In this document: piece by piece, positions 9,024 to 38,675 of the stretch
Layout: every line of letters begins with the position of its first letter
How positions within the stretch are numbered: the first letter of the stretch is position 1
IMG/VR virus record: IMGVR_UViG_3300027819_000265
Location: 1 to 42,085 of that record
Direction: 5' to 3' (one strand)
DNA from: a virus
Lineage: Duplodnaviria > Caudoviricetes
DNA length: 42,085 nt
Translations under genes and position numbers: made by a program
The notes under the pieces: generated by a model
The model's database searches: none
The model's input: the letters and a program-made list of their open reading frames with translations, nothing else
What the model was told of the DNA's origin: nothing

Positions 9024-9028
9024 TAAAA

Positions 9029-9211: not shown

Positions 9212-9214
9212 AAA

Positions 9215-9639: not shown

Positions 9640-9647
9640 TTTTTAGT

Positions 9648-9866: not shown

Positions 9867-9868
9867 AA

Positions 9869-10642: not shown

Positions 10643-10841
10643 TTATAGTGATCTTCTAAATTCTTTAGATACAACAATGGGTGAACTAGAAGAACTAGCA
10701 GAACAATATAGAATCTATGGACAACATAAGCAAGAAAAACAAGTTTATGACTTTGTTAACAAATTAGCTAATCAATTTCATAAAATAGACAAATTTAGAC
10801 TAAAAAATGAAGCCAATATGGATAATAGAAAATCTGACTAA
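10620..10841 (+). CDS. Hypothetical protein
   Basis: ORF track, packing. Confidence 0.5.
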   Translation: MKFCPNTDYSDLLNSLDTTMGELEELAEQYRIYGQHKQEKQVYDFVNKLANQFHKIDKFRLKNEANMDNRKSD

Positions 10842-12802: not shown

Positions 12803-12970
12803 ATGACCTATAAAACCGCCATCATTCAATGGGAATATGAAGATCAACTACCAGAAGATTTAACAGACGAAGATTTTAAGCTTATGTTTACCGCTTCAGA
12901 AGTTGATGGTGTCAGAATATATCCTTATGTTGAAACAGAAAACGGTGAAAAATATTTCCTAATAGTATAA
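12803..12970 (+). CDS. Hypothetical 55-aa protein (below track cutoff)
   Basis: MTYKTAIIQWEYED...YFLIV*, fills gap exactly. Confidence 0.6.
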   Translation: MTYKTAIIQWEYEDQLPEDLTDEDFKLMFTASEVDGVRIYPYVETENGEKYFLIV

Positions 12971-12973
12971 AAT

Positions 12974-22443: not shown

Positions 22444-23355
22444 CTAAATAGCTCCTATATCCACGGCATATTGAAAATCAATGGTCCGTGGGTCATTTTC
22501 TAAAGAAAAGACTTTTTCTATAAAATTTACCGCCGCTTTTCGTCCATCAACACAGACAATTTGGCAGTTTAACGGATAATCGTTAATAATTCGGCGGGCT
22601 TGATGAAATATGAAGTCACTCGTAGCTTTTATCTTCTTTGTATGTGGTAAATAAGCTATTGAGTTTATATTGTTGAATTTTTCTTCTACCATTATTATTA
22701 GATACTTATTATCGTTCTTACATCTTTCTAGTTCTCTATTAAAACGATCAAAACCTTGACTTAGGGTGTTGCAAAAATCGTTCAAGCTCTTTCTTTCTAC
22801 AAATATATTATTATTTTTTATTGTATAGTCACCAACATCAAGTTTGGCAATTTCTTTATTAGGAAGATTTAATAGCGACTGCTCGCGGGAGTCTATAATA
22901 AATTCTAATTGTTTGTTTTCTTGAAATTTGATAAGTTGATTATAATCATATCTTGGTAATAATCCTAGTCCTAAACAAATTGTCTCATAGGTGTATTTTC
23001 CATAAAAATTATGAAAAAACTTAATAGAAGGGTAAAAAAGACTTCTACATTCAAACTGTCCCGGCGCGTAAATTAAATTTTTTTCTTTTTTCCTTTTTGC
23101 TAACCAGTTTTTTAGGTATTCTAATCCTTCTTCTTTTGAAACTTTCTTTAACCAGTTACCTAAATTAGTCTTAGTAAGGAAATCAGAATTAAAATACTTA
23201 TCAATATTGCCAGAATAAACAATAGATTCACCAGTTAATTTATCAATCCGTGGCTCATACTTTAGAAGATAGGAAGATAAATCAACTTGATGTTCGCGAA
23301 AAAAATGATTGTTTTTGTCAATTTTTTGCTTGCAAATTTTACAAAAATCTAGCAT
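22444..23355 (-). CDS. ERCC4-domain nuclease with N-terminal Zn-finger-like extension
   Basis: IIDSREQ, LDVGDY, FVERKSLND, RF.RELER; N-terminal CKIC...H....H. Confidence 0.8.
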   Translation of the reverse strand: MLDFCKICKQKIDKNNHFFREHQVDLSSYLLKYEPRIDKLTGESIVYSGNIDKYFNSDFLTKTNLGNWLKKVSKEEGLEYLKNWLAKRKKEKNLIYAPGQFECRSLFYPSIKFFHNFYGKYTYETICLGLGLLPRYDYNQLIKFQENKQLEFIIDSREQSLLNLPNKEIAKLDVGDYTIKNNNIFVERKSLNDFCNTLSQGFDRFNRELERCKNDNKYLIIMVEEKFNNINSIAYLPHTKKIKATSDFIFHQARRIINDYPLNCQIVCVDGRKAAVNFIEKVFSLENDPRTIDFQYAVDIGAI

Positions 23356-24620: not shown

Positions 24621-24806
24621 ATGAAAAAACTATATTTATTGACCAATGAAGAAGTTAAATTTATCAAAAGCGCCATGATCCATTCTGCTAATGTTCATAG
24701 GCTTTTTTGCGAACAAGAAGCCAAAGAGTATCCATTAGAAGAAACCAACAAGTTGATAAATGAAACAAATAGAATAATAACAGAAGTTTTTGAAAATGAA
24801 AAATAA
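24621..24806 (+). CDS. Hypothetical protein
   Basis: ORF track. Confidence 0.55.
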   Translation: MKKLYLLTNEEVKFIKSAMIHSANVHRLFCEQEAKEYPLEETNKLINETNRIITEVFENEK

Positions 24807-25554
24807 AGCTTTTTCTTTAATAGAACTTTTAATTGTTGTTTCTATTATTACTCTCCTCGCTTCTTTAGGAGCTAGTAATCTTTTCTTAGCAAAAGAGAAG
24901 GTAAAAAAAGTAATATGTCAAAACAATATCAGGCAACTAAGTCTATCGTGGCAACTTTATTCCTTAGACAATAGAGATAAATTAGTAAGCAACAAATCAG
25001 GAATAAGCAGCCCCGAAAAATGGTGCAATGGCTGGCTAGATATGTGGGACTCGCCCGATAATACTAATACTTCTTTTTTGGTTGATCCTAATCTGTGTTC
25101 GCTTGGTCAATATACTGTAAATTATAAAATATATAAATGCCCCGCAGACAAGAAGAAAGAAAGAGTAAGAACAATTTCAATGAACAACTGGGTCGGCGGT
25201 GAAACTTGGTATAACTGCGGGGACTTAAATAAAATAAAGAATCTTAAGACTGTAGAAAACATCAATGATTTTATCTCCCCCTCTAAGGTCTTTGTGTTTA
25301 TAGATGAAAGAGAAGACTCAATTAACGATAGAGCTTTCGTTATAGATACTATTAACGAAGCAATGGTTGATTTTCCTGCTAGCTATCATAATAATTCTGC
25401 TAATCTTTCTTTTGCTGACGGTCACATAGGAAGTAAAAAATGGGAAGACATTAGAACAACTCCGCCGATTTCTAATAAGTCTCTTATCTTAAATCAAGAA
25501 CAACTACACAATAAGGATATAACATGGCTCCAGATTCACTCCCAAAACCACTAA
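24796..25554 (+). CDS. Prepilin-type N-terminal cleavage/methylation protein with H-X9-DG domain (DUF1559-like), copy 1
   Basis: MKNKA|FSLIELLIVV, C.NN.RQL, YKCPAD, SMN, DEREDSIND, HNNSANLSFADGH. Confidence 0.9.
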   Translation: MKNKAFSLIELLIVVSIITLLASLGASNLFLAKEKVKKVICQNNIRQLSLSWQLYSLDNRDKLVSNKSGISSPEKWCNGWLDMWDSPDNTNTSFLVDPNLCSLGQYTVNYKIYKCPADKKKERVRTISMNNWVGGETWYNCGDLNKIKNLKTVENINDFISPSKVFVFIDEREDSINDRAFVIDTINEAMVDFPASYHNNSANLSFADGHIGSKKWEDIRTTPPISNKSLILNQEQLHNKDITWLQIHSQNH

Positions 25555-25662
25555 AATGTAGAAAATGTAAAACTGTTGCCTTAAATTTCTGTGTTTAAAG
25601 CACTATCTTGAAATATTGGACAATTTTGAGAAGAAAAGTAGAAAAGCAAATCTAACGGTTTC

Positions 25663-25944
25663 CTAATCTTTTTTCCAGCCGGTTTCCATTATCACCTTAG
25701 CTAGTTCTCTAGCAAATTTTCCCGCCTTCTTTTCTGTTTCTTCCCAACAGAAAGCGTGAAAGCATTCTTCAATCAGTACTTCTAGTTCTCTTTTAGGCTT
25801 CAGTTTTGGATCAATCCAAATCTTAGGTTTCTTACATTCAGGCGGGTCACAAAGCCCCCAGGCATTGTATCTTTTATGAGGTTTTAAGAATATTATATTG
25901 TATTTAACACCTTCAGCATTTTCAAATTTCAATTTTAATGCCAT
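25663..25944 (-). CDS. Small zincin-like protein with degenerate HExxH (EECFH)
   Basis: GLCD.P...I.IDP.L...LIEECFHAF; AAGGAAAACT RBS. Confidence 0.55.
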   Translation of the reverse strand: MALKLKFENAEGVKYNIIFLKPHKRYNAWGLCDPPECKKPKIWIDPKLKPKRELEVLIEECFHAFCWEETEKKAGKFARELAKVIMETGWKKD

Positions 25945-26015
25945 AGTTTTCCTTTTTTAACTGTAATATAGTATATTGTAAGCAACTTATAAAAAAGTCA
26001 ACAAAATAAAAGTGT

Positions 26016-26402
26016 ATGAGCTATTGTCAAAATTGTGGATCAAAACAAGAAATCGGCGCGAATTTTTGTGCTAAATGCGGAACATCATTAAAAGGTTCTC
26101 TAACTATTAAAACCGCCAAAGCCAAAAGAATCATTAATGATGACGAAGAAGGAGAAATAACAGAGTTTTCTACCAATATGGGGGGATTAGATGTAGAAAT
26201 TGATAACCTAAAACCTCAAAAAATAACTATTGGTCAACTAGTAAACACAAGAAAAAAAGAAGAAGTTTTACAAGAATATAAAAACCGCCCAATCGGAAAA
26301 CCGTTGAACAAAGAACAGTTTTGGCAGGAATTCAAAAAAGAAGCTGGCTCCAGGGGTAGAGACTCAAAAATAGAGTCAGAAGTAGGAGAAGATTCTGAGT
26401 AA
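26016..26402 (+). CDS. Zinc-ribbon domain protein
   Basis: YCQNCG...ANFCAKCG. Confidence 0.75.
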   Translation: MSYCQNCGSKQEIGANFCAKCGTSLKGSLTIKTAKAKRIINDDEEGEITEFSTNMGGLDVEIDNLKPQKITIGQLVNTRKKEEVLQEYKNRPIGKPLNKEQFWQEFKKEAGSRGRDSKIESEVGEDSE

Positions 26403-27096
26403 AACAGGAATAAAAATTATCACAAAACCAACATTTGAAGATAGCATAGCGGTAATAGATAAGGAAATAGCCAAGCGAAAATCAAAATGGCAATTAACTG
26501 CCATTGCATGGATGGATTTTGAAGATGTTTCTCAAATAATACGTCTTCACATATTCAGAAAATGGCACATGTATGATCCAACCAAAACATTAGAGCCGTG
26601 GTTAAATGTAATTATATCTAATCAAATAAGTAACTTAATAAGAAATAACTACGGGAATTATTGTCGCCCGTGTCTTAAATGTCCGGCTTTAGAAAGCGAA
26701 GATGGTTGTAGAATTTACGGAAAACAAACTTCTGAATGTTCTCTTTATGCTTACTGGTTAAAAAATAAAAAACAAGCTTATGATACAAAACTTCCACTGC
26801 CGATAGAAAATCATACAGAAGAAGTCCATAGCCTTCCTGATACCGATTTTGATCTTGAAAAAAGCACTCAAAACTTGCACCAAAAAATGCAAGAAATATT
26901 AAAACCTTTTGAGTTTAGAATTTATCGTTATCTTTATATAGATCATAAAACAGAGGAAGAAGTAGCCAAAATAATGAAATATAAGACCACAGAAAAAACC
27001 AGAGAAGCAGGTTACAAACAAATCTATAACATAAAAAGAATAATAATAAACAAAGCCAAGAAAATTTTGTTTTCTGGTGATGTAGATATTGTTTAG
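26395..27096 (+). CDS. Phage RNA polymerase sigma factor (sigma70/ECF-like) with Cys-rich insertion; probable CTG start
   Basis: DFEDVSQ.....IF.KW..YD.....W......NQI.NL.R region 2; C-terminal EEEVAKIM.Y HTH; frame open from 26386, AGGAG then CTG 26395. Confidence 0.7.
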   Translation: MSKTGIKIITKPTFEDSIAVIDKEIAKRKSKWQLTAIAWMDFEDVSQIIRLHIFRKWHMYDPTKTLEPWLNVIISNQISNLIRNNYGNYCRPCLKCPALESEDGCRIYGKQTSECSLYAYWLKNKKQAYDTKLPLPIENHTEEVHSLPDTDFDLEKSTQNLHQKMQEILKPFEFRIYRYLYIDHKTEEEVAKIMKYKTTEKTREAGYKQIYNIKRIIINKAKKILFSGDVDIV

Positions 27097-27105
27097 AGAT
27101 GATAA

Positions 27106-27915
27106 ATGCAAAAAAACAAATCATTTTCCTTGGTAGAATTATTAACCGTAATAGCAATTGTGGTTATATTGCTTTCTCTACTCCTGACCTCTTTAAGTCT
27201 TAGCAAACAGTTGTCTAGAAGGGTTAAATGTATATCTAATCATAAGCAATTAATACTTACATGGCAAATGTATGCTGACGATAATCTGGAAAGATTGGCA
27301 AACAATGGTTATATACCAGGAGGAGGAAATGAAAATATTAAAATGTGGGTTCAGGGATACCTAAACCATGCTTCTTTCTTAAAAGATTCTTTTGATGAAG
27401 AATTACTGATTAATCCCAAATTCGCCCAATTTGGAAACTATATAAAAGAAAAAAAGATATATAAGTGTCCGTCAGATAATAAAACATTTAACCACGATAA
27501 TAAAACATTTGAAAAAATAAGAAGCTATTCTATGAACTGCTATATGGGGTGGGAAAGTTCAATCGGCGGCGGTCCAAATCCCAAGTCTGTATTCTATAAA
27601 CAACAAGATATTAAAGACCCGTCCAACAAACTTGTATTTATAGATGTAAATCCAGAGAGCATTTGCTGGCCATTTTTTGGAATAGAAACACCTATCTGGC
27701 CAATTGAAGGTTTAAGATATAACGATTTTTTTCAAATGTTTCCATCTTCTTTACATTCTAGAAATGCCAACATTGCTTTTTCAGATGGACATGTAGAATC
27801 ACACAGATGGAAAGATAGCAGAACAATAAAACCTGAAAATGTGTTTTGGCATTATCACCGTCACGAATCAAAAGGAAATATAGATTTAGTATGGTTAAGA
27901 GAACGAGCAAAGTAG
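27106..27915 (+). CDS. Prepilin-type N-terminal cleavage/methylation protein with H-X9-DG domain, copy 2
   Basis: MQKNKS|FSLVELLTVIAI, C.SNHKQL, YKCPSD, RSYSMN, HSRNANIAFSDGH. Confidence 0.9.
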   Translation: MQKNKSFSLVELLTVIAIVVILLSLLLTSLSLSKQLSRRVKCISNHKQLILTWQMYADDNLERLANNGYIPGGGNENIKMWVQGYLNHASFLKDSFDEELLINPKFAQFGNYIKEKKIYKCPSDNKTFNHDNKTFEKIRSYSMNCYMGWESSIGGGPNPKSVFYKQQDIKDPSNKLVFIDVNPESICWPFFGIETPIWPIEGLRYNDFFQMFPSSLHSRNANIAFSDGHVESHRWKDSRTIKPENVFWHYHRHESKGNIDLVWLRERAK

Positions 27916-28733
27916 GTTTTAGTTTGATAGAACTTTTAGTAGTAATAGCTATTATTATTATATTAGCTAGTTTATTATTACCAGTTTTATCTAAATCAAA
28001 AACAAAAGCCCACGCAATAAAGTGTTTAAATAATCACCGTCAATTAACATTAGCGTGGAAAATGTATGTTGATGATAATAATGATTATGTTCCCTATGCC
28101 TGGGGGTATAGAGGGAGTCCATTATCAAAATATGCCTGGATTTTAGGAATGCAAGATTTTAGTGATAATAATCCATCTAATTATGATCCTGAATATGATA
28201 TTAAACAATCTCCTTTATGGGGATATTGCGGGAAAAATTTGCAAATATGGAAATGCCCTGCCGATAATTCTACCGCCAAATTTAATGGAAAAGAAGTTCC
28301 GCGTCTAAGAAGCATGAGTATGAATTTTTGGGTTGGTGGACATGAAGGAACAGATGTTGGATTATCAGGACATGAATGGAAGGTATATCTAAAATTATCA
28401 GAAATCATAAATCCTGGACCATCAAAAACATATCTTTTTTTAGACATGAGGGAAGATTCTATAAATAGCGGTTCATTCTATATTGATATGACTGGGTTTC
28501 CAGATAAACCAGAACTAACTAACTTCTATCAAGACTGGCCCGCTGGTTATCATAATAGAGGAGGAGGATTTTCTTTTATAGATGGACACTCGGAGACAAA
28601 AAAATGGTTAGATTCAAGAACTACTCCGGTCTTAAGAAAGAAAAACCATTTACCATTTGATAGACCCGTTCCATCGCCAAATAATAAAGATATAGTTTGG
28701 ATGCAAGAGCGGTCAACAAGAAAAATAAGATGA
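27891..28733 (+). CDS. Prepilin-type N-terminal cleavage/methylation protein with H-X9-DG domain, copy 3
   Basis: MVKRTSKVG|FSLIELLVVIAII.ILASLLLP, C.NNHRQL, WKCPAD, RSMSMN, REDSIN, HNRGGGFSFIDGH; ATG 27891. Confidence 0.92.
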   Translation: MVKRTSKVGFSLIELLVVIAIIIILASLLLPVLSKSKTKAHAIKCLNNHRQLTLAWKMYVDDNNDYVPYAWGYRGSPLSKYAWILGMQDFSDNNPSNYDPEYDIKQSPLWGYCGKNLQIWKCPADNSTAKFNGKEVPRLRSMSMNFWVGGHEGTDVGLSGHEWKVYLKLSEIINPGPSKTYLFLDMREDSINSGSFYIDMTGFPDKPELTNFYQDWPAGYHNRGGGFSFIDGHSETKKWLDSRTTPVLRKKNHLPFDRPVPSPNNKDIVWMQERSTRKIR

Positions 28734-29818
28734 AAGATAAAAAAATAGAATTAACAGACATTCAGAAACTAACTATTCTACAAGAGTGGAATAACGATCT
28801 TGAAAACCCTCCTTCAATTGAAGAATTAAGAAAAGCAATGTTTGGAGAAAAAACATGGGAATCAAGATTTCAGACGAGAGCAATACGTGAATTTCTAGCA
28901 ACTAAAGATTTAACCCCCCGCGATTCACAAAAATATATTCCAAAAGATAAAGTGGTTTTAACCCCAGAACATAAAGAGTTTATTGCTAATAACTGTAGCT
29001 CTATGAAGCTTCTGGAGATGACAAGGACTCTTTTTAATAATCAAAGTCTGTCAATTCTTTCTCAAGAAGGTCGGGCGGTTACAGAATACGCAAGAAGCTT
29101 ACCTAATGTTGTTTTATTCAGTGGAGAAGAAAAAATAGTAGAAGGTGACTACAAACCACCCAAAAGAGTAGATCAAATATGCGCCAAAATCAACCAATAT
29201 GTTCATAGTAGCAACCTAAAAGAAGAAACATTGAAGCCTCACGAAAGAAAATGCGCTCTTGCTCTTATAGGTTACTTACATGTCTTTAGGTTTAAGAATC
29301 AAATTGATACTTATAATTCTGACAATGACAGATCACTTTTTGAATCTGAGTTTATTAGATGTTGTTATGATAAGCCCGATCTTAGCGAAGAAGAGGTTGA
29401 TCAATATATCATTTATGCAAACGAAGTAGTAATGGATTTAAGCACATTAAAAAGAATAGAACAATTCAAGATAAGACTAGATGAAGACTTAGAGGGAGAT
29501 AAAAGACTAAGTAAATCATTGGTTGATTCTATTAAATCAATGACAGAAGAACACAATATGTCTATCTCACGGCAAAATAGTTTATTGAATGATCTTAAAG
29601 GAAAACGAAAAGAAAGAATAAGTTTACTAATAAAAGAAAATAGTAGTCTGGTTCAATTAATTGAGGTTTGGAAAAATGAAGAACAACGAAAACAAATAGT
29701 AGGACTAGCTAAATTACGTAAAGAAAAAATAAAAGAAGAAATAAATAGAATGACCAACATGGACGAAATGAGATTACAAATATGGGGCGTTTCTCCAAAC
29801 GAAATCCTAAACTCTTAG
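28730..29818 (+). CDS. Conserved phage protein upstream of terminase (possible small-terminase role)
   Basis: Helical/coiled-coil C-terminus, directly precedes TerL; ATGA overlap. Confidence 0.5.
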   Translation: MKDKKIELTDIQKLTILQEWNNDLENPPSIEELRKAMFGEKTWESRFQTRAIREFLATKDLTPRDSQKYIPKDKVVLTPEHKEFIANNCSSMKLLEMTRTLFNNQSLSILSQEGRAVTEYARSLPNVVLFSGEEKIVEGDYKPPKRVDQICAKINQYVHSSNLKEETLKPHERKCALALIGYLHVFRFKNQIDTYNSDNDRSLFESEFIRCCYDKPDLSEEEVDQYIIYANEVVMDLSTLKRIEQFKIRLDEDLEGDKRLSKSLVDSIKSMTEEHNMSISRQNSLLNDLKGKRKERISLLIKENSSLVQLIEVWKNEEQRKQIVGLAKLRKEKIKEEINRMTNMDEMRLQIWGVSPNEILNS

Positions 29819-29821: not shown

Positions 29822-31705
29822 ATGGCTTGGTATGATCATAAACAACCTATTCTATCTTACGATAACGTAAACGAAGAAATAGAAAAATTATCTGGCGAAT
29901 TAGATAATATCGCCGCCAAAATAACCTTAGCTAAATTTTTAAGGTCTAATATCGGTTTTTGTTTTGAATTAATGACTGGCGGCAAGAAGCTATTAGAACA
30001 ACAGGAAATTCTTCTAAAATCAATCCTCATAAGAGATAACAGTATGATAGTAGCGGCACGCGGATACTCTAAATCATTTTTGATTGCTGTTATGAGTATT
30101 ATGATGCCTATATTCTATCCTAACAGTAAAGGATGTTTAATATCTTCTAATTTTAGAAATGCTCGTCGAATACTTGAAAATGCCGACGCTATTATAAGAA
30201 GAAAAGAGTCTGTTTTATTACATCAATGTTTTCTTAATAAGCTATCTAAAGTTCCAGATCAATACACTCTTAAACTAGATAATGGGTCCGAAGTTTTTGC
30301 TCTTCCACTTTCTACGGGCGAAAATCTTCGTGGAACCCGCGCACATTGGGTAGTTGTAGATGAAGGACTTTTAATTAGTAAAGAAATTCAAGACAACATT
30401 CTTCGTCCGTTCTTAACTAACAAACAGAACTACGAAGAGGAAATGAAAATAAGGGAAATAGAAAATGAGTTGATAAAAGAAGGCACATTACAGGAAAGTG
30501 ACAGGATTTCATTTCCAAAAAATAAGTTCATAGTTTTTTCTTCGGCTTCTTATAAGTTTCAATATCTGTATGAGATGTTTAGTTACTATGTAGAACAAAC
30601 ACTAAATCCATCAAAAGAAAAAGACGCTCCTACTTACTTTGTTATGCGAGCGTCCTGGGAAGCTATTCCGCAAGATACTAGTATTTTAGATACAACACAA
30701 ATAAGGTCTGCCGCGCAAGCACAAGGGGAGAATTCTGAATCGTTTAAGAGAGAATATAAAGCCTTGTTCTCGGATTCCGGCGACGGTTACTTTAACGCCA
30801 GAAAATTACACGAATGCACAATAAAAAGTGGAGACTTTCCTACAACACAGATAAAAGGAGACAAAGGAAGTGAATATATTCTAGCTATTGACCCTTCTTA
30901 CTCTGGTTCTAAAACGTCTGACTACTTTGCAATGGGTGTTTATCTGATAAACAAAGAAGAACGACGGATTACTTTGGTTCATACCTACGGAAAAGCAGGG
31001 GGGAATATAAAAGATCACTACAATTATCTTACTTATCTTCTTACTTTCTTCAATATTGTTTTTGTTATCCCTGATATTACTAACGGCGCGGATTTTATAA
31101 GTAGTTATAACGAATCCACGGTTTGTAAAGAAAAAAACATTAAACTAGATTTTGTGGAATGTAAATTTGATAATTTAAGTGATCAAGAATATATAGAAGA
31201 AATTAAAAAACTAAAACAACAATATAACAAAATAACTGGCAAAATAGCAATAGGACAGATATTCGGAACTCATAGCGTAACCACTATGAATCAGAATCTT
31301 CAGTTAATGATAGATAAACAGAAGATATGGTTTGCTTCTGCGGTTGGGGCCAACGATGAAATGTTAAACAAATATAAAGGAATAACCTTACCTTTCTCGT
31401 TTACAGATAAATTCGATAAAACTTATCAGGACATAGATTTCTTGGAAGAACAAGATTACTGGATAACAGAGACTAAAGCACAAATAGCTTTAATAGAAGT
31501 AAAAACTACGGCTACGGGAACGCTACAGTTTGATTTGCCGGGGAACTTAAAAAGATCGTCTTCTACCAATCCAAACCGCCCGCGCAAAGATCAATACACT
31601 TGCTGTTTAATGGCTGGCTGGGCGGCAAAGATATATTTTGATATGTTGTTTAACGCTGAAGATGTTAAACCTACTAATAATTTTATGCCTATTATTCTAA
31701 GGTAG
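29822..31705 (+). CDS. terL: Terminase large subunit
   Basis: AARGYSKS Walker A, LRG...VVVDE Walker B, SSA coupling motif, F.REY.A.F, LAIDP....SD, KD nuclease residues. Confidence 0.85.
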   Translation: MAWYDHKQPILSYDNVNEEIEKLSGELDNIAAKITLAKFLRSNIGFCFELMTGGKKLLEQQEILLKSILIRDNSMIVAARGYSKSFLIAVMSIMMPIFYPNSKGCLISSNFRNARRILENADAIIRRKESVLLHQCFLNKLSKVPDQYTLKLDNGSEVFALPLSTGENLRGTRAHWVVVDEGLLISKEIQDNILRPFLTNKQNYEEEMKIREIENELIKEGTLQESDRISFPKNKFIVFSSASYKFQYLYEMFSYYVEQTLNPSKEKDAPTYFVMRASWEAIPQDTSILDTTQIRSAAQAQGENSESFKREYKALFSDSGDGYFNARKLHECTIKSGDFPTTQIKGDKGSEYILAIDPSYSGSKTSDYFAMGVYLINKEERRITLVHTYGKAGGNIKDHYNYLTYLLTFFNIVFVIPDITNGADFISSYNESTVCKEKNIKLDFVECKFDNLSDQEYIEEIKKLKQQYNKITGKIAIGQIFGTHSVTTMNQNLQLMIDKQKIWFASAVGANDEMLNKYKGITLPFSFTDKFDKTYQDIDFLEEQDYWITETKAQIALIEVKTTATGTLQFDLPGNLKRSSSTNPNRPRKDQYTCCLMAGWAAKIYFDMLFNAEDVKPTNNFMPIILR

Positions 31706-31850
31706 TCTCTTTCTCTAATTTTTTCTTCCAGTAATCAAGTTTTTTTATTCTTTGAATATGAAATTCTAATAGTCTTGTGGCTGATTTGTCTTTATTGATT
31801 TGATTTTGAAGTTGGTTTATCAAACATTTAATTGTATTAGATTTGTTCAT
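31692..31850 (-). CDS. Hypothetical 52-aa protein (below track cutoff)
   Basis: MNKSNTIKCLINQ...TTLE*, overlaps deaminase stop. Confidence 0.45.
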   Translation of the reverse strand: MNKSNTIKCLINQLQNQINKDKSATRLLEFHIQRIKKLDYWKKKLEKETTLE

Positions 31851-32256
31851 ACTTTTCAAACTGTCCTTCAGAATTAGAGAAAATTACATTCTTGAAGGAA
31901 AACACCTGAAGTAAATTTTCGCATGAAAAACAGGGACGAGAATTTCTGATTTGATTTTGTTGATTCACTCGAATATTAATCAGTGAACACTTCTTAGAAG
32001 GAATGTTTGTTAAATTCTTTAATTGTTTTATAGCATTTAACTCTGAACAACTACCTCGAATTCCTGAAATATTATACCCTTCTTTGGAAAATCGTGGGTT
32101 TCTCAAATTAACAGGAGTTGTTTTTATTGTATTGTTACTAAATGCAATAATTCGCCCCTTATAAATGATAAAGGAAAAGTGGCAATTCCGCCCGACAAAA
32201 TCACGTTTGTCGAAAGCAAAGGCGATTTCTTTTATTTTTTCTATCTGGTTGTTCAC
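31837..32256 (-). CDS. Cytidine/nucleotide deaminase-like zinc protein
   Basis: HFSFI, CSE (H/C-x-E), SRPCFSC; GTG 32256 overlaps upstream TGA. Confidence 0.7.
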   Translation of the reverse strand: MNNQIEKIKEIAFAFDKRDFVGRNCHFSFIIYKGRIIAFSNNTIKTTPVNLRNPRFSKEGYNISGIRGSCSELNAIKQLKNLTNIPSKKCSLINIRVNQQNQIRNSRPCFSCENLLQVFSFKNVIFSNSEGQFEKYEQI

Positions 32257-32390
32257 AATTTTCTTTTTATTTTCCAATACCAATCTTCTACTCTTAGAGA
32301 GATAAAAACGCAGAACAATAAAAAACAAGACAAAAAATCAAGAATAATGTCTTTTGTTCTCTTAAATAGATTTTTCTTGTGTTTTTTCAA
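32253..32390 (-). CDS. Small membrane protein, 45 aa (below track cutoff)
   Basis: MKKHKKNLFKRTKDIILDFLSCFLLFCVFISLRVEDWYWKIKRKL*; TTGA and GTGA overlaps on both sides. Confidence 0.5.
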   Translation of the reverse strand: MKKHKKNLFKRTKDIILDFLSCFLLFCVFISLRVEDWYWKIKRKL

Positions 32391-32653
32391 GGAAGGGCTA
32401 CTCTGGGAAATATAACATCGTTTTTGTGTTGCTCTTTCCAGTCTCGTTTATATTCGCGGACTTTGCTTTGGTTCTTTTTCTGCCAGTCTGTTACTTGTTT
32501 CTTGATTTTGGACTTGTTTTTATTGTAACGGGCGGTATTATATTCTTTGATACATTGCTTGCAAACATACTTGTAGCCCGTTTTCGCGCCGGATTGTTGA
32601 TTGAATTCTGTTAGTTCTTTTTCTTGCAAACATTTAGTACATTCTTGTGTCAT
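32387..32653 (-). CDS. Zinc-finger protein (HNH/Endo VII N-terminal-like, no nuclease domain)
   Basis: CTKC...EF...CKQC then basic helix; start at ATG 32653 just after promoter. Confidence 0.6.
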   Translation of the reverse strand: MTQECTKCLQEKELTEFNQQSGAKTGYKYVCKQCIKEYNTARYNKNKSKIKKQVTDWQKKNQSKVREYKRDWKEQHKNDVIFPRVALP

Positions 32654-32660
32654 ATTGTTT

Positions 32661-32689
32661 ATACTAACGATGGTTGATAAAAAAGTCAA
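32661..32689 (-). promoter_or_regulatory. sigma70-type promoter, leftward
   Basis: TTGACT (32689-84), 17 bp, TAGTAT (32666-61), ATG 7 nt later. Confidence 0.65.
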
Positions 32690-32697
32690 GAAAAACA

Positions 32698-32726
32698 TTG
32701 ACTCTTCTAAAAAATCATGGTAATAT
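32698..32726 (+). promoter_or_regulatory. sigma70-type promoter with extended -10, rightward
   Basis: TTGACT 32698-703, 17 bp, TGG-TAATAT 32721-26, ATG 6 nt later. Confidence 0.7.
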
Positions 32727-32732
32727 GGACAC

Positions 32733-33608
32733 ATGAGTAACATAAAAATTATTAGAAATAAATATAACCTGGATTTCAAATCTTTTGTTTTTCCAGCGGG
32801 AGAGGTTAGTGTTAAACTAAATCTAAATTCCACAGCTTATTCTGCTAAAACTAATTTTTTTGCCGCCTCCGATCATCAAACAATAATCGCTAAAATTAAG
32901 AATAGTAATGATGTTTTGGAGTTAGCAATGATTACTAACGCTCTTAGAAAAATTGACAACACACCTATTTATCTTTTAATGCCTTACTGTCCTTATTCGA
33001 GACAGGATCGTGTTTGCGATAAAGGAGAGTCTTTTAGTTTGAAAGTTTTTGCTGATTTTATTAATTCTCTAAGATTTGAACAAGTCTGTATTGTTGACCC
33101 GCATAGTAATGTTATTGAAGCTGTTTTTAATAACTTACAAATAATTACTCAGTTTCAAATAATAAATGAGTGGACAGATTTTATTACTAAAATTTGTAAA
33201 AATAAAGGCGTAAAATTTATTTCCCCCGATGCCGGATCAAACAAAAAAACATCTGAGATTGCCGGATTCTTTCAGCATACTGATTTTATTCGTGCCGATA
33301 AGTTAAGAGACTTAACAAATGGAAATATAAAAGAAACCATTGTTTATTGTGACGATTTTAATCAAAAAGATGTAGTTTGCGTGGATGATCTTTGTGACGG
33401 CGGAAAGACGTTTACAGAATTAGCCAAAGTTTGTAAATCTAAAAATTGCAGCAAGTTTATTCTATATGTTACTCATGGTATTTTTTCCAAAGGGATAGAT
33501 ATTCTCATTGAAAATGGGATTGATGAAATATGGACAACTGATAGTTTTTATTCTGGGAATGATAGCAGAGTAAATGTATTAAAACTAGAAGAAAAAATAG
33601 AAACATAA
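32733..33608 (+). CDS. prs: Ribose-phosphate pyrophosphokinase-like protein (NARP1 Adps-type)
   Basis: FPAGE, MPYCPYSRQDR, VDPHS, ISPDAG, K.RD, VDDLCDGGKTF, VTHGIFS. Confidence 0.9.
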   Translation: MSNIKIIRNKYNLDFKSFVFPAGEVSVKLNLNSTAYSAKTNFFAASDHQTIIAKIKNSNDVLELAMITNALRKIDNTPIYLLMPYCPYSRQDRVCDKGESFSLKVFADFINSLRFEQVCIVDPHSNVIEAVFNNLQIITQFQIINEWTDFITKICKNKGVKFISPDAGSNKKTSEIAGFFQHTDFIRADKLRDLTNGNIKETIVYCDDFNQKDVVCVDDLCDGGKTFTELAKVCKSKNCSKFILYVTHGIFSKGIDILIENGIDEIWTTDSFYSGNDSRVNVLKLEEKIET

Positions 33609-33628
33609 TAAACTAAATAATAAAAAAT

Positions 33629-33691
33629 ATGAAAACAAAAATAGTATTCCTTGGTGGGACTTGTAACGGAAGTCTTTGGCAGAATCATTAG
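33629..33691 (+). pseudogene. N-terminal relic of nucleoside 2-deoxyribosyltransferase-like gene
   Basis: MKTKIVFLGGTCNGSLW then stop after 20 aa. Confidence 0.6.
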
Positions 33692-33709
33692 ACATTTTAC
33701 AAAAAACAA

Positions 33710-33738
33710 TTGACAAAATTAAAAAAAATAACTAACAT
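33710..33738 (+). promoter_or_regulatory. sigma70-type promoter
   Basis: TTGACA 33710-15, 17 bp, TAACAT 33733-38, ATG 6 nt later. Confidence 0.7.
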
Positions 33739-33744
33739 AATAAC

Positions 33745-35235
33745 ATGAACATACAACCACTAATTCAAAATGATTTTTATAAACAATCACATTATCGTCA
33801 ATATCCTAATAATACGACAAAAGTTTATAGCAACGTAACTGCTAGAAAAAGTCGCATAGAAGGACTTAATTCTATTGTTGTCTTTGGTTTTCAATATTTT
33901 ATTAAAGCCTATCTAATAGAAGAGTGGAAAAGAAACTTTTTTGATAAACCGTGGCAAGAAGTTGAGTCCAAATATTTAAGAACAATAAATAATACCCTTG
34001 GTCCGAACGCAGTTACAACCACACATATCAAAAAACTTCATGATCTAGGTTATTTACCTCTTTCTATTAAAGCTCTTCCAGAAGGAGTTAGCGTTCCTAT
34101 TAGAGTCCCATGCTTAACTATAACAAATACAGTTGATCATGCTTATTGGTTAGTTAATTATCTTGAAAGCATTCTATCTTGTATTACTTGGCAGCCTATT
34201 ACGAGCGCAACAATTGCAAAAGAATTCAGGAGAGTTTTGAATAAGTATGCGTTAGAAACAGTTGGTAATACTGATTTTTGCCAATGGCAGGGGCATGATT
34301 TTTCATTTCGCGGAATGTCTAGTTTAGAATCAGCCTGTACAAGTGGGGCGGCACATTTGCTATCATTTACCGGAACTGATACTATCCCTGTAATTGAATT
34401 CTTGGAACAATATTACAATGCAGATGTTACCAAGGAATTAATTGGGGCAAGTGTTCCAGCTTCCGAGCACTCGGTAATGTGTTTTGGCGGAAAAGAAGAT
34501 GAAATTAAAACATTTGATAGACTTCTGGATTTATTTCCAGAGGGAATTCTAAGCGTTGTTTCTGATACCTGGAGTTTACCAAACGTAGTATGTGATCTTT
34601 TACCAAGACTAAAAGATAAAATACAGAATAGAAAAGGTAAATTAGTTATCCGCCCTGATTCATTTTGGACAGACCCAGTAGATTGTCTTTGTGGATTTGA
34701 TGGCTATCACCCTCAAATGGAAAAACTAAACGAACAAGAAAAACTTTCTATCAGAAAAGGATTAATTGAATCTCTTTGGGATATTTTTGGCGGAACTATA
34801 AGCAATAAAGGATATAAGATTTTAGCTCCTTGTATTGGTGCAATCTATGGTGATTCAATAACCATTGAGAGAGCAGAAAAAATCTGTCAACGACTAAAAG
34901 AAAAAGGATTTGCTTCTATTAATTCTGTTTATGGAATTGGGTCTTATACTTATCAGTATAATACTAGAGACACTTTTGGTCTAGCAATTAAAGCTACTTA
35001 TGGAGTTGTTGAAAATCAACCCATTGAAGTATTTAAAGACCCGGTAACAGACGATGGAATGAAAAAGTCTGCTAAAGGTTTAATTAAAGTTGAAGGAACA
35101 AGTGGACACTACATCTATAAAGATTGTGTTTCAATAGAAGAAGAGCAGAGCGGTGAACTATTGGAAGTTTTCAGAGATGGTAAATTATTAATTGATTATT
35201 CTCTTTGTCAGATAAGAAACAATATCAATAAATAA
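33745..35235 (+). CDS. nadV: Nicotinamide phosphoribosyltransferase-like protein (NARP1 Namat-type)
   Basis: DFYK.SH..QYP, HDFSFRG, F.GTDT, SVPASEHSVM, VSDT, IRPDS, IYGDSIT, TRDT, KDP.TD.G.KKSAKG. Confidence 0.92.
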   Translation: MNIQPLIQNDFYKQSHYRQYPNNTTKVYSNVTARKSRIEGLNSIVVFGFQYFIKAYLIEEWKRNFFDKPWQEVESKYLRTINNTLGPNAVTTTHIKKLHDLGYLPLSIKALPEGVSVPIRVPCLTITNTVDHAYWLVNYLESILSCITWQPITSATIAKEFRRVLNKYALETVGNTDFCQWQGHDFSFRGMSSLESACTSGAAHLLSFTGTDTIPVIEFLEQYYNADVTKELIGASVPASEHSVMCFGGKEDEIKTFDRLLDLFPEGILSVVSDTWSLPNVVCDLLPRLKDKIQNRKGKLVIRPDSFWTDPVDCLCGFDGYHPQMEKLNEQEKLSIRKGLIESLWDIFGGTISNKGYKILAPCIGAIYGDSITIERAEKICQRLKEKGFASINSVYGIGSYTYQYNTRDTFGLAIKATYGVVENQPIEVFKDPVTDDGMKKSAKGLIKVEGTSGHYIYKDCVSIEEEQSGELLEVFRDGKLLIDYSLCQIRNNINK

Positions 35236-35236
35236 A

Positions 35237-35482
35237 TTGAAAACCGCCGATTTAATTTCACTTAAACACCCCTTTTCACCAAAACGTGAAAAAGGAAGAA
35301 TTACTGAAATACATCCAGATCACCTTATCACAATAGTAAAACTTGATAATTTTCATGAAAATAAAAAATTCTTACTTACCCTGGGAAATAAGCATGTAGG
35401 ATACTTTTTCATTCGTCTATCCGAACAAGAACTAAAAGAAATAGGTAGTCAGGTTTCCTTGGCATTACAGTTAAAAAAATAA
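35237..35482 (+). CDS. Hypothetical protein
   Basis: ORF track, TTG start. Confidence 0.5.
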   Translation: MKTADLISLKHPFSPKREKGRITEIHPDHLITIVKLDNFHENKKFLLTLGNKHVGYFFIRLSEQELKEIGSQVSLALQLKK

Positions 35483-35498
35483 TATATCAAAAAAAACT

Positions 35499-36275
35499 AT
35501 GTTACAAATAACACCCAAAGTCTATCTAATCGGCAGCACAAAGTTTGATAAAGAATCTTTATCTCAGTATCTATCAGAAACAGGAAATAAAGAATTCTTA
35601 GATATTCTGACCGGCGCAGATGAAATGGATATATGTTCTTTCTATGCTAAATTGTGCTATAAGTCTCTTTCATTGGGTCACAATAGAAATGTTTCTAAAA
35701 TAAGAGATATAGAACAAAACTTTATTAACATTATAGAAACCGGCCACGGAAGCATCTGTGAACACGCAACACTAAACTTTGTAGCAGAAAATGTTAGTAG
35801 AGTTTTACACACAGAGTTAGTCCGCCATCGTGTGGGAGTGGCATTTTCGGCAGAGTCCGGTCGGTATTGTTATTCGGGAGAATTAAAAACCTGGACACCT
35901 ACAATATACGATAAATATCCAGAGATAAAGGAAGAATATCTTAAGACTGTTCAATTCTGTGAATCACAAATGAACAAAGTTTATGACAAATATATAAAAG
36001 ACTGTAAAGACTTTCATGAAAAGAAAGAATTAACCAGCGCGATTAGACGTATGAAGCCTTTAGGTTGTGGAGAAACTGTTGGTTTTACAATGAATCTAAG
36101 AACTTTGAGACACGTAATTCACATGAGGACTTCAAGATTTGCGGAAGAAGAAATAAGATTGCTTTTTTCTCAGGTTGCTGATATAGTCAAAGAAAAAGTT
36201 CCATTACTTTTTAACGATGCAAAAATAGAATCAGTAAACGGTATAAATGAATATGTTTTTAATAAAAAAATATAA
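35499..36275 (+). CDS. thyX: Flavin-dependent thymidylate synthase
   Basis: GH.S..EHA, SR....ELVRHR....S.ES.RY, NLR.LRH...R, A.EEIR. Confidence 0.92.
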   Translation: MLQITPKVYLIGSTKFDKESLSQYLSETGNKEFLDILTGADEMDICSFYAKLCYKSLSLGHNRNVSKIRDIEQNFINIIETGHGSICEHATLNFVAENVSRVLHTELVRHRVGVAFSAESGRYCYSGELKTWTPTIYDKYPEIKEEYLKTVQFCESQMNKVYDKYIKDCKDFHEKKELTSAIRRMKPLGCGETVGFTMNLRTLRHVIHMRTSRFAEEEIRLLFSQVADIVKEKVPLLFNDAKIESVNGINEYVFNKKI

Positions 36276-37370
36276 GTGAAAATAAACATACAAACAATAG
36301 ACAAAAAATCTTTCAAGATAAAAGAAGGAGAGATTAATGGGAAAAAAGTCCTATTAATTAACCCTACTGAATTCGATTGTAAATGGACAAAAGACAACTT
36401 AATCTATCGTTCGTTAATGGTTGATACAGAAGGGAATGTTTTGTCTCGCGGATTTAATAAGTTTTTTAATTTTGGAGAAAAACCTGATTTATATCCTAGT
36501 TCTGACAAATATAATGATTTAGTAATAGAAGAAAAAGTTGATGGGTCTTTGTGTGTTTGTGATTGGATTTTTGATCAATTCAATGCAAGAACCCGTGGAA
36601 CGATTTCTTATAAATCATTAGAAAACGCCGCCGATTTTGATTTTGTTTTTAATAAATATCCCAAGATCATAGACATCTGCCGCGCTAACCCAGATGATAC
36701 TTATCTTTATGAAATAACATCTCCAAACCAACGAATAGTTCTTAGTTATGGTAATGAGCCTGATATTAGGTTTTTAGGTTTTATACATAAAGAATCTGGT
36801 TTTTATAATTCTCCTTATTCTAAGGAAGGGCAGTTTATTATAAATCAAATAGGTTGTCAATCGCCAGAGACTTATAAACTTGAAGGCTCTTTATTAGACA
36901 TAATAGAAAATATTAAAAAATGGGAACAAAAAGAAGGCGTTGTTATAAAATATAACGACAACCAAACATTTGTCAAAGCTAAATCTTTGTGGTATCTCAC
37001 AAGACACTCTCTAAAGTCTAAACTAGAGTCTTTGGATAATATTGTTGATTTGTTTATATCTTTAGGTTATCCTAACTATGATAATTTCTTTAAGAATATA
37101 GAAGAAACCGTGGACTTTGAGACCGCCACAGAAAATCGCGGCAGAATTAGTGATATTGTAGATGCTTATAAACAAGTTATACAAATTGAAGAAGGCATGA
37201 TAGAATTTGTAAACAGAATAAAAGATTTGCCACGAAAAGAACAAGCTGAAAAAATCATATCATCATACGGCCAAACAAATAGAGCGTCTTTCTGTTTTAT
37301 CAAGCTTGACAATAAACCATTTGACAGTAAGATAATTAAAAAATTAATCTTTCAATTATTGAAAAAATGA
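36276..37370 (+). CDS. T4 Rnl1-like RNA ligase
   Basis: KFFN, EKVDGSL, TRG, YEI.SP.Q.IV..Y, EGVV, K.KS.WY. Confidence 0.88.
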   Translation: MKINIQTIDKKSFKIKEGEINGKKVLLINPTEFDCKWTKDNLIYRSLMVDTEGNVLSRGFNKFFNFGEKPDLYPSSDKYNDLVIEEKVDGSLCVCDWIFDQFNARTRGTISYKSLENAADFDFVFNKYPKIIDICRANPDDTYLYEITSPNQRIVLSYGNEPDIRFLGFIHKESGFYNSPYSKEGQFIINQIGCQSPETYKLEGSLLDIIENIKKWEQKEGVVIKYNDNQTFVKAKSLWYLTRHSLKSKLESLDNIVDLFISLGYPNYDNFFKNIEETVDFETATENRGRISDIVDAYKQVIQIEEGMIEFVNRIKDLPRKEQAEKIISSYGQTNRASFCFIKLDNKPFDSKIIKKLIFQLLKK

Positions 37371-37786
37371 GAGACGTAATAATAATAAGAGGAACTTCTG
37401 GGTCTGGCAAAAATACCTTCGCAGAAATCTTAAATCATAATTATCCTTTTTATCAGTCTGTTGTTATATGTTGTGCTGATGATTATATGATTAATCAAAA
37501 AGGTGAATATGATTTTAAGCCAGAAAAATTAGGATATGTTCATAAAAAATGCCAAGAAAGATTTGAAGACGCTATTAATGGTGACGTTAATTTGATAATT
37601 GTTTCAAATACAAATACCAAAGAAAAAGACTTTAAGTTTTATATTGATACCGCCCGGAAAAATAATTATAGAGTTTTTAGTTTAGTATTAGAAAATCGTC
37701 ATAACGGAAAAAATATCCACGGGGTTAATAATGAAGTTTTAGACAGACAAGAAAACAATTTGAAAAGTAGTTTGAAATTAAGATGA
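37367..37786 (+). CDS. P-loop polynucleotide kinase-like (AAA_33)
   Basis: RGTSGSGK.T, ADDY, H..CQ, VSNTN, N.HGV. Confidence 0.85.
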   Translation: MRDVIIIRGTSGSGKNTFAEILNHNYPFYQSVVICCADDYMINQKGEYDFKPEKLGYVHKKCQERFEDAINGDVNLIIVSNTNTKEKDFKFYIDTARKNNYRVFSLVLENRHNGKNIHGVNNEVLDRQENNLKSSLKLR

Positions 37787-37995
37787 GAAAATATAATAGA
37801 AATATAAAAAAAACAAACACAGAAATATGTGATCTAGCTTACTCTTCGCTAGAACATTTAATTACTGAATTGGATAGATTGGGCATTAAATCAGAAAATT
37901 ATAAAGATGTTGAATTTGAATTTGATTATTCTTCATGTTTTTACGAGAGTGATACCCCTGGGATTAAAGCGATAATTAAAATTAATAAATGTTAA
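37783..37995 (+). CDS. Hypothetical protein
   Basis: ATGA overlap. Confidence 0.55.
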   Translation: MRKYNRNIKKTNTEICDLAYSSLEHLITELDRLGIKSENYKDVEFEFDYSSCFYESDTPGIKAIIKINKC

Positions 37996-38675
37996 AAACA
38001 TTAAAATTCAACACCAAAGATCAGGGAATATTTTTTGTAAGCGATCTACATTGGAACCATAATCCTAAATGGCCCGTTCCATTGTGGAAAAGCCGTGGAT
38101 ATGAAACATTAGAAGCTCACAATGAGCACATAATAGATCAGATCAACAAACATATTAAACCAAATGACATTTTGTTTTCTGGCGGCGATTTAACCTTAAA
38201 TTGTTCAGAAGATGATTTTGAAAGTTTTATCAAAAGATTAAACTGTCAGAACATTTATTGTTTATGGGGGAACCATCCTAATCCAATGGCCAAAATTTAT
38301 AAACGAGAACTAGAAAAGGCGTGGCTTGATATAAACGATTTATCAGTATCCAACGAAATTTTTTCGGCTAGAGTAGAAGTATATCCTTTTAGATATAAGA
38401 ATATTGTTTTTTGTGGAGACTATCTTGAGTTAATCATAGATAAACAGATAATAGTGTTTTTTCATTATCCTCTTTCTATCTTTAATCACCAGAAATCTTT
38501 AGCATGGTGTCTTTGTGGTCATAGTCATCACGGATTCAAAGCAACTTTACCTTCAAATCTTAATGGTAAAATTCTTGACATCGGCTGGGATGGATACAAA
38601 AAACCTTTGTCTTTTAATGAAATAAAAGAAATAATGGACAAAAAACAGTACATTAAAATAGACGAACATCATTAA
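37989..38675 (+). CDS. Calcineurin-like metallophosphoesterase
   Basis: SDLH..H, GGD, GNH, HYP, GHSH, DIG.D. Confidence 0.88.
   Translation: MLKTLKFNTKDQGIFFVSDLHWNHNPKWPVPLWKSRGYETLEAHNEHIIDQINKHIKPNDILFSGGDLTLNCSEDDFESFIKRLNCQNIYCLWGNHPNPMAKIYKRELEKAWLDINDLSVSNEIFSARVEVYPFRYKNIVFCGDYLELIIDKQIIVFFHYPLSIFNHQKSLAWCLCGHSHHGFKATLPSNLNGKILDIGWDGYKKPLSFNEIKEIMDKKQYIKIDEHH

What the first reader, a model, noticed from the sequence alone, without database searches (positions are those of the whole stretch)
24796..28733. Phage carries three prepilin-type H-X9-DG proteins in its sigma factor/terminase region
Seen: three divergent paralogs (24796, 27106, 27891), each with a class III signal (A/S/G|FSL(I/V)ELL + hydrophobic helix), C..N..QL, KCPxD, SMN and an exact H-X9-DG motif; copies 2 and 3 sit between the sigma factor and the pre-terminase gene, overlapping or nearly abutting neighbours, in phage-like AT-rich codons. 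Known: this architecture (TIGR02532 + TIGR04294/DUF1559-like) is massively expanded in Verrucomicrobia, Planctomycetes and Lentisphaerae, is presumed processed by prepilin peptidase, and has no established function; I know of no described phage role. Inference: a phage-encoded pseudopilin system using the host peptidase and T2SS/T4P machinery to remodel or jam the pilus (superinfection exclusion, receptor masking) or to display phage-chosen binding domains. No peptidase or assembly ATPase is in the window, so it would depend on the host.
Basis: partly seen in the sequence, partly recalled or inferred. Interest (0 to 1): 0.88.

Follow-up and report, generated by a model that had tools for sequence, protein, structure and literature searches.

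The report
Phage captured three host pilin-like genes
An uncultured groundwater phage carries three intact pilin-like genes whose separate nearest relatives lie in Verrucomicrobia bacteria, and other phages carry their own copies; the proteins likely slot into the infected cell's retractable surface fibres and would keep further phages, including the phage's own progeny, from attaching.

Summary
The three genes are real, intact and not an assembly artefact. They encode type IV pilin-like H-X9-DG/DUF1559-type proteins in a large tailed phage; relatives have 168-194 kb genomes and no tyrosine integrase.

They are not duplicates. Each falls in a different bacterial subfamily (one clade rejected, AU p=6e-9), so they are likely separate captures from Verrucomicrobiota, probably Limisphaerales. 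Copies 2 and 3 split a sigma/pre-terminase junction that is closed in 103 of 105 relatives. A sister strain differs mostly at silent sites (26 of 33 codons).

Two marine sub-lineages of the same phage group, T4-like phages and a 46-kb phage carry independent copies (dN/dS about 0.1). In the marine sub-lineages these sit behind GTGTAA, the motif that precedes portal and tail genes. The five pilin-bearing phages checked lack a prepilin peptidase; five host genomes have peptidase, PilT and secretins.

Most likely role (0.45, untested): decoy subunits that mask or jam a pilus receptor, like Pseudomonas P-FimU. Main rival (0.3): boosting host binding or uptake. My searches found no paper on phage-borne H-X9-DG genes, but this scan met them before in other phages.

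The parts
24796..25554 (+). pil1: 252-aa prepilin-type H-X9-DG protein; Ala at -1, Glu5, Ser instead of Pro22; last gene of a run that starts with two YopX genes; own host subfamily (best hits 41-46%)
25663..25944 (-). 93-aa gene of no known family; homologues sit directly upstream of the pilin in L088, L096, L106 but also occur in loci with no pilin seen (L004, L007, L010); context only
26016..26402 (+). Zn-ribbon gene, usual neighbour upstream of sigma in the clade; GTGTAT at 26012 overlaps its start codon
26491..27096 (+). phage sigma-70-type factor (PF04542), core gene of the clade; inferred to read the GTGTAA motif
27106..27915 (+). pil2: 269-aa prepilin-type H-X9-DG protein; Ser at -1 (0 of 347 homologues), Glu5, Thr instead of Pro22; second host subfamily (best hits 43-52%)
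27891..28733 (+). pil3: 280-aa prepilin-type H-X9-DG protein; canonical Gly|Phe, Glu5, Pro22; third host subfamily (53-60%); model with a 51-residue N-terminal helix and pilin-like head
28730..29818 (+). conserved pre-terminase gene of no known family; directly adjacent to sigma in 103 of 105 relatives
29822..31705 (+). terminase large subunit; marker of a clade of large tailed phages

Best explanation
The phage carries three selected pilin-like genes from three different bacterial subfamilies, and their products likely enter the host's own type IV filament machines as decoy subunits that would mask or jam a pilus used as phage receptor. Shown: intact genes, pilin signal and predicted pilin fold, separate ancestry, insertion of pil2+pil3 into the sigma-terminase gene run, purifying selection, no peptidase or over-cut-off assembly ATPase in the phages checked, and full retractile-pilus machinery in candidate hosts. 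Inferred steps: (1) expression in the middle-to-late phase with sigma and terminase (pil2, pil3; pil1 timing unknown); (2) insertion in the inner membrane and cleavage by host PilD (likely for pil1 and pil3, doubtful for pil2 with Ser at -1); (3) exchange into filaments during extension and retraction, pil3 as a working replacement, pil1 and pil2 (no Pro22) perhaps as minor-type or stalling subunits; (4) fewer adsorptions by competitors and less loss of progeny on the infected cell or its debris. Step 4 rests on analogy only.
For: Structure matches: the top 20 are all type IV pilins or pseudopilins, weakly (best Z 4.7, rmsd 3.4, 117 aligned; model pLDDT 92). Hosts: PilD-type peptidase, PilT over cut-off and 3-8 secretin matches in 5 of 5 Verrucomicrobiota genomes. 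Phages: no peptidase in 0 of 5 and no T2SSE ATPase over cut-off in 0 of 5 pilin-bearing records. Repeated capture: 305 viral stretches, viral label needs 9 changes on the 172-row tree, pilin-near-terL arises 3 times on the TerL tree. Late control in relatives: GTGTAA directly before the pilin cluster in 13 of 15 sigma/terL loci and before the preceding gene in the other 2, background 39 of 1146 windows; the same motif precedes 68 of 88 portal-like ORFs and portal, tail and virion genes. The marine viral clade has a 49-60 aa C-terminal tail against a median of 8-9 in host homologues, as P-FimU has an extended C terminus (PMC12952977 Discussion). That paper shows pilin replacement blocks adsorption and notes PilA-like genes in virulent phages.
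Against: No experiment, and nothing shows that H-X9-DG proteins are in filaments or that these phages use pili. The marine copies are very conserved (dN/dS 0.07-0.11) and shared at 70-95% identity among unrelated phages, whereas P-FimU is highly diverse. Classical exclusion genes act early (recalled), while the motif points to late expression. The window copies lack the C-terminal tail. The late motif is inconclusive in the window itself (overlaps the ATG; found in only 15 of 80 equivalent positions) and absent before 12 of 22 pilin clusters in other contigs. The 15 loci are only two sub-lineages.
Confidence: 0.45

Rival explanations
1. Host-service cargo: the proteins keep their bacterial job as ligand-binding or adhesive subunits of the pilus or secretion machine, and the phage adds them to sustain uptake or surface attachment during a long infection.
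For: Heads stay host-like: 93-94% of columns conserved in each host subfamily are kept (102 of 109, 61 of 65, 40 of 43). Strong selection across unrelated phages fits a conserved host-side partner. Three different subfamilies in one phage fit three ligands. Pilus-like fibres bind dextran in planctomycetes (PMC5394234 passages), and a type IV-like pilus is tied to glycan uptake in Akkermansiaceae (PMC13174399 passages); neither names this family.
Against: Neighbours of host homologues are a scatter of housekeeping and metabolic genes with no shared glycan or phosphate context (74 and 103 proteins scanned). PhoH next to marine copies is a usual late gene of the clade, also present where no pilin is seen. 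Hosts already hold 8-132 candidate copies. Late expression leaves little time for a nutrient gain (inference).
Confidence: 0.3
2. SNJ2-like use: the phage builds its own fibres on the host, to clump the infected cell with fresh hosts or surfaces before lysis, or to serve a partner virus.
For: SNJ2 provirus pilins use the host machine, dominate the surface and promote biofilm (PMC12426801 abstract and Discussion). Late timing would suit gathering new hosts. Marine phages carry sets of 2-4 pilins.
Against: SNJ2 is temperate; no tyrosine integrase in 0 of 5 near-complete genomes, four of this clade. pil1 and pil2 lack Pro22, present in 334 of 347 protein homologues and 77 of 78 viral ones.
Confidence: 0.12
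3. Virion component: late-made proteins are packaged and delivered to the next cell's envelope.
For: Shares the late motif with portal and tail genes in relatives; pil2 and pil3 lie in the terminase gene run.
Against: The cleavage signal and hydrophobic helix are kept (mean hydropathy 2.2-2.8), which should send them to the inner membrane, away from cytoplasmic assembly. Accessory: none in 146 terL loci and no full-length copy in 4 near-complete clade genomes.
Confidence: 0.05
4. Neutral passengers or an assembly chimera.
For: pil1 and pil2 deviate at Pro22, pil2 at -1; pil1 has a long branch.
Against: Junctions bridged in several runs; phage-like GC3; 26 of 33 changed codons silent against a neutral share of at most 0.34, p=2e-7.
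Confidence: 0.03

Closest known systems
Cellular N_methyl + DUF1559/SBP_bac_10 (PF07963 + PF07596; TIGR02532 + TIGR04294) prepilin-type H-X9-DG proteins of the PVC superphylum
   Same: Same architecture and motifs; 53-60% (pil3), 43-52% (pil2 best hits), 41-46% (pil1 best hits) identity to proteins, the named ones from Verrucomicrobiota. Envelope-fraction proteins in Tuwongella (PMC8567305 passages); function unknown (PMC10632474 passage).
   Different: Phage-encoded, AT-rich codons, placed in a sigma-terminase gene run; pil1 and pil2 lack Pro22, pil2 has Ser at -1; below the curated cut-offs of PF07596 and TIGR04294.
P-FimU of Pseudomonas F10-like prophages and PilA-like proteins of other phages (Sztanko et al., PMC12952977)
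   Same: Phage-borne pilin that depends on the host machine; proposed here to work the same way, by replacing a receptor subunit.
   Different: Other pilin family (250-aa head), other phylum, apparently virulent phage, three separately captured copies, late motif in relatives, conserved rather than diversifying sequences; no function shown.
SNJ2 pleolipovirus pilins PilA1/PilA2 (Xiang et al., PMC12426801)
   Same: Tandem virus-borne pilins without their own machine, acquired from hosts several times.
   Different: Archaeal provirus; pilins shown to form filaments and to serve as receptor for another virus.
Pilus-blocking exclusion proteins Zip, Tip, PfsE (10.1101/2024.03.05.583538 abstract)
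   Same: Proposed outcome: fewer adsorptions and protection of progeny.
   Different: They are not pilins; they bind PilZ, PilB or PilC and are made by prophages.

Membership tests
Type IV prepilin (class III signal) | Short basic leader, small residue at -1, Phe +1, Glu +5, hydrophobic helix | tested here: met
   pil1 A|F, pil3 G|F, all Glu5, hydropathy 2.2-2.8. PF07963 over cut-off for pil1 and pil2, under for pil3 (17.2 vs 21.2).
Type IV prepilin (class III signal) | Gly or Ala at -1 in pil2 | tested here: not met
   Ser at -1; 0 of 347 homologues with a readable signal (of 387) have Ser. Ser occurs in small phage pilins L081, L101, L115.
Type IV prepilin (class III signal) | Cleavage and N-methylation by PilD | not testable with these tools
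   Peptidase present in 5 of 5 candidate host genomes; activity not testable.
Type IV pilin fold | Long alpha-1 helix packed on a C-terminal beta-sheet | tested here: inconclusive
   Helix 12-62 and terminal strands at pLDDT 92; top 20 VIA hits are pilins or pseudopilins but best Z 4.7 is under the trusted level; profile hits to solved pilins cover mostly the N-terminal helix.
Filament-forming major pilin | Pro22 kink in alpha-1 (its role in assembly is recalled) | tested here: inconclusive
   Present in pil3, absent in pil1 (Ser) and pil2 (Thr); 334 of 347 homologues have it.
H-X9-DG / DUF1559 proteins | H-X9-DG motif near the C terminus, with N-terminal prepilin signal | tested here: met
   Exact motif in all three.
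H-X9-DG / DUF1559 proteins | Score over curated cut-off for PF07596 or TIGR04294 | tested here: not met
   PF07596 14.7, 23.0, 13.9 vs 23.3; TIGR04294 15.5 vs 19 for pil1, no hit for the others. The models are weak for this subfamily: 0 of 45 members of alignment A3 hit TIGR04294 at E 0.01, while many close homologues carry PF07596 or the H-X9-DG name. Read as a divergent Verrucomicrobiota subfamily.
P-FimU-type receptor replacement | Homology to FimU | tested here: not met
   No FimU family among NCBIfam or Pfam hits; similarity to other pilins is limited to the N-terminal helix.
P-FimU-type receptor replacement | Incorporation into the pilus and block of phage adsorption | not testable with these tools
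   Needs a host-phage system.
Self-contained T4P/T2SS locus | Own peptidase and assembly ATPase | tested here: not met
   None among the window proteins scanned (not every small ORF); 0 of 5 other pilin-bearing records, 3 near-complete, over cut-off. The window is about a quarter of a genome.

The most novel reading that the evidence does not exclude
Virulent phages of Verrucomicrobiota repeatedly capture H-X9-DG pilins and wire them to late promoters to shut the receptor before burst. That would make the huge unexplained H-X9-DG/DUF1559 expansion of PVC bacteria a library of interchangeable subunits of retractile fibres that double as phage receptors, with this phage mixing one working replacement and two assembly-poor decoys.
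Probability: 0.2. Interest if true: 0.85.

Novelty: new variant of a known kind. Interest (0 to 1): 0.62.

Why it matters
H-X9-DG/DUF1559 proteins are among the largest families of unknown function in PVC bacteria (68 paralogs in Planctopirus, PMC10632474 passage; 8-132 candidates per genome here). Repeated, selected capture by unrelated phages, three times in one genome, picks out which members matter in infection and gives single genes to test for cleavage, filament entry and adsorption. It names a likely host group for a large uncultured phage clade and gives that clade a candidate late promoter (GTGTAA). It would extend pilin replacement from temperate Pseudomonas phages to apparently virulent phages of another phylum.

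Tried and rejected
Single-protein scans of viral contigs with pil3 and TerL found nothing; alignments were needed. No match to the pil3 head among 50,697 INPHARED records. Foldseek against PDB and BFVD gave no hit at E 0.001. The model of a marine B-type pilin was low confidence (pLDDT 56) and was not used. Duplication inside the phage: rejected. Co-capture of a host pil2-pil3 pair: in the loci with two pilins near pil3-like host genes, none of the neighbours scored best against the pil2 type; one contig (L149) holds both subfamilies about 2.8 kb apart, divergent. A phosphate-starvation link, suggested by earlier scan notes: no shared context (one alkaline phosphatase, one GDPD) and no Pho-box pattern seen by eye (not tested statistically). 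My recollection that Boedeker 2017 ties DUF1559 to dextran-binding fibres was wrong: 0 occurrences of 'DUF1559' or 'pilin' in its main text (supplements not read). The TATAAATA count in T4-like G007 does not exceed its reversed control (51 vs 53), so only the position of one site is cited. Sigma-70 promoter and terminator scan was near shuffle level. No RNA holder listed. The family search around G073 held one genome only. No complex prediction was run. Literature: 10 searches showed no paper on phage-borne H-X9-DG/DUF1559 genes; the library lacks most subscription papers, and no supplements were read, including the phage-pilin table S3 of PMC12952977, which could list such genes.
Full report
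1. Observation. The three ORFs, their motifs and their tight packing are as described. The contig is a phage: terminase, DnaB, UvsX-like recombinase, RNA ligase, ThyX-type thymidylate synthase and NAMPT match PHROGs, and GC is 28-39% throughout. Holders are groundwater metagenomes. Overlapping unitigs from runs X1/X2 (possibly the source) and X3/X4 bridge the sigma-pil2, pil2-pil3 and pil3-preterminase junctions without joints, though no single piece spans the whole stretch.

2. What the proteins are. All carry a class III signal and a head of about 240 residues. The pil3 model is confident (pLDDT 92, helix 12-62). Its 20 best structural matches are all type IV pilins or pseudopilins, but weak (best Z 4.7, rmsd 3.4, 117 aligned), and Foldseek found nothing. 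pil3 is 53-60% identical to its 119 best hits, and the hits that name an organism name Verrucomicrobia or Limisphaerales. The best pil2 hits are 43-52% (named ones Verrucomicrobia, Pedosphaera) and the best pil1 hits 41-46% (unnamed). Curated cut-offs for PF07596 and TIGR04294 are not reached, nor is TIGR04294 hit by any of 45 aligned members. So these are a divergent Verrucomicrobiota branch of the H-X9-DG/DUF1559 type.

3. Three captures, not duplication. In a 172-row FastTree (356 rows thinned by identity) and a 47-row IQ-TREE the three copies lie apart. pil2 and pil3 each sit in a starred group of non-viral or unnamed proteins, and pil1 has no starred group. Holding them together costs 153 log-likelihood units, AU p=6e-9. 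The trees are unrooted and most 'P' rows have no named source, so host-to-phage direction is inferred from the family's size in bacteria (8-132 first-look candidates per genome in 41 genomes).

4. Insertion and spread. The terminase belongs to a clade with a Zn-ribbon/sigma/pre-terminase/TerL/ERCC4/portal block; near-complete members are 168-194 kb. No tyrosine integrase was found in 5 near-complete genomes, four of this clade; other lysogeny modes were not tested. Among 146 loci fetched by TerL, none has a pilin hit in the fetched stretch. Sigma and pre-terminase abut in 103 of the 105 loci that show both, so pil2+pil3 are a 1.6-kb insertion. Whole-record searches found no full-length copy in 5 plus 20 clade records, and one headless 85-aa pilin. 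A pilin-led scan found 305 viral stretches and kept 79 loci. In 17 of these the pilins lie beside the same sigma/terminase block, on the opposite strand. Others are in T4-like genomes of 201 and 354 kb (Gp23) and a 93% complete 43-kb record with its own DNA polymerase. Some high-GC loci (e.g. L079) may not be viral. On a 52-row TerL tree, pilin-near-terL appears in three places. The marine copies form their own viral clade (support 100) with two tandem types; the window's copies are outside it.

5. Selection. Marine type A: median dN/dS 0.066 in 75 usable of 325 pairs (250 saturated). Type B: 0.109 in 33 of 36. For the window, short contigs of a likely sister strain in run X1 differ at 33 codons, 26 silent (pil1 7 of 10, pil2 11 of 14, pil3 8 of 9). 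The neutral share is 0.19-0.34, pooled p=2e-7. Caveats: only 90-170 nt per gene, 11 table rows not shown, one site counted in both overlapping genes. Each copy keeps 93-94% of columns conserved in its host subfamily, slightly under the 97-98% median of its homologues. Losses include Pro22 in pil1 and pil2, and pil2 has Ser at -1.

6. Timing. GTGTAA is 56-fold enriched upstream of ORFs in 77 clade loci (152 of 524 windows). It precedes 68 of 88 portal-like ORFs, as well as portal, tail, virion and PhoH genes, so I read it as the late promoter of the phage sigma factor (inference). It lies within 110 nt of the pilin signal in 13 of 15 block-bearing loci and ahead of the preceding gene in the other two; background is 39 of 1146 (L069 and L071 left out as copies of L068 and L070). 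These are two sub-lineages, not 15 events. Of 22 other clusters, 6 have GTGTAA, 4 a TAAATA-type motif (T4 late promoter, recalled; G007 site at 65394-65401) and 12 neither. In the window the test is inconclusive: GTGTAT overlaps the Zn-ribbon start, and only 15 of 80 equivalent positions have the motif. GTGTAA does occur within 2 kb upstream of sigma in 60 of 97 loci against 18 in a control stretch. pil2 and pil3 should follow the sigma-terminase run; pil1 timing is unknown.

7. Machinery. Five Verrucomicrobiota genomes that hold family members all have a prepilin peptidase, 6-18 T2SSE-family matches, PilT over cut-off and 3-8 secretin matches. Five pilin-bearing phage records have no peptidase and no ATPase over cut-off. 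Host homologues are scattered with no shared neighbour, so context gives no ligand.

8. Mechanism. The proteins can only act through the host's type IV filament system. Published parallels are P-FimU, which replaces a tip subunit and blocks adsorption (PMC12952977: abstract, section on other phages, Discussion); SNJ2 pilins (PMC12426801: abstract, Discussion); and Zip, which protects progeny (bioRxiv 2024.03.05.583538, abstract only). I put receptor masking or jamming first (0.45): retractile pili allow subunit exchange, late timing fits protection of progeny, and the marine copies have a P-FimU-like extended C terminus. Against it stand the strong conservation and sharing among unrelated phages, which fit a host-service role (0.3) equally well, and the lack of any evidence that this family is in filaments. 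Other papers were seen as passages only: PMC8567305, PMC5394234, PMC13174399, PMC4807772, PMC10632474, PMC12378983.

9. Novelty. Phage-borne pilins are known and the family is known in bacteria; ten searches showed no paper joining the two. Earlier notes of this scan report phage-borne H-X9-DG genes on other DNA, one with TATAAATA in a 200-kb T4-like phage. New here: three separately captured subfamilies in one groundwater phage, insertion in the core sigma-terminase run, independent capture three times within one phage clade, and the GTGTAA motif. Verdict: new variant of a known kind, interest 0.62.

Noticed in passing
L074:10908-11554, L081:10902-11243, L082, L083, L099, L101, L105, L107, L115, L116, L138 (directly downstream of the large pilin): Small prepilins (80-93 aa mature) ending in CxxCH, the c-type heme attachment motif (recalled); 12 ORFs in 11 loci. 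Atlas cluster of 81 members, 88% viral, only N_methyl annotated. Heme binding untested; not in the window.
   Followed up: partly
clade loci L001-L066, L225-L304; window 21417 and 26012: GTGTAA as candidate late promoter of this large-phage clade; used divergently between PhoH and the pilin-side gene in L068, L072, L098.
   Followed up: partly
L068:9051-10978 and relatives: Virus-only pilin pair with a 49-60 aa aromatic C-terminal tail ending in a WGW[YF]W motif; most type A copies read H-X9-DA instead of DG.
   Followed up: partly
L146:1501-1758 (G003): 85-aa pilin without a head in a complete 194-kb clade genome, like the truncated PilA of Pseudomonas phages.
   Followed up: no
window 256-14035: Sugar and cofactor cluster: FkbM methyltransferase, split transketolase-like and split TPP enzyme pairs, PanB, epimerase, DegT aminotransferase, GDP-mannose dehydratase; possibly virion or host-surface glycan synthesis.
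   Followed up: no
window 32733-38675: PRPP synthetase-like + NAMPT (NAD salvage), ThyX-type synthase, RNA ligase, then a Walker-A protein and a phosphoesterase-like protein (last two by eye): an RNA repair-like set.
   Followed up: no
window 22444-23355 and 31706-33608: Rearranged core block: the ERCC4 nuclease, next to TerL in most relatives, lies 6.5 kb upstream on the other strand, and no portal follows TerL.
   Followed up: no
P0122; L167, L209, L218: Likely mis-binned or mislabelled records: an 86% identical TerL in a MAG named Nanoarchaeota, and H-X9-DG genes on contigs titled Bifidobacterium that group with Verrucomicrobiota rows.
   Followed up: no
L336:1-2340 (G115): pil3-like host match inside an 861-aa open frame: possible fusion or long upstream open stretch; the N-terminal part has no Pfam hit.
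   Followed up: no
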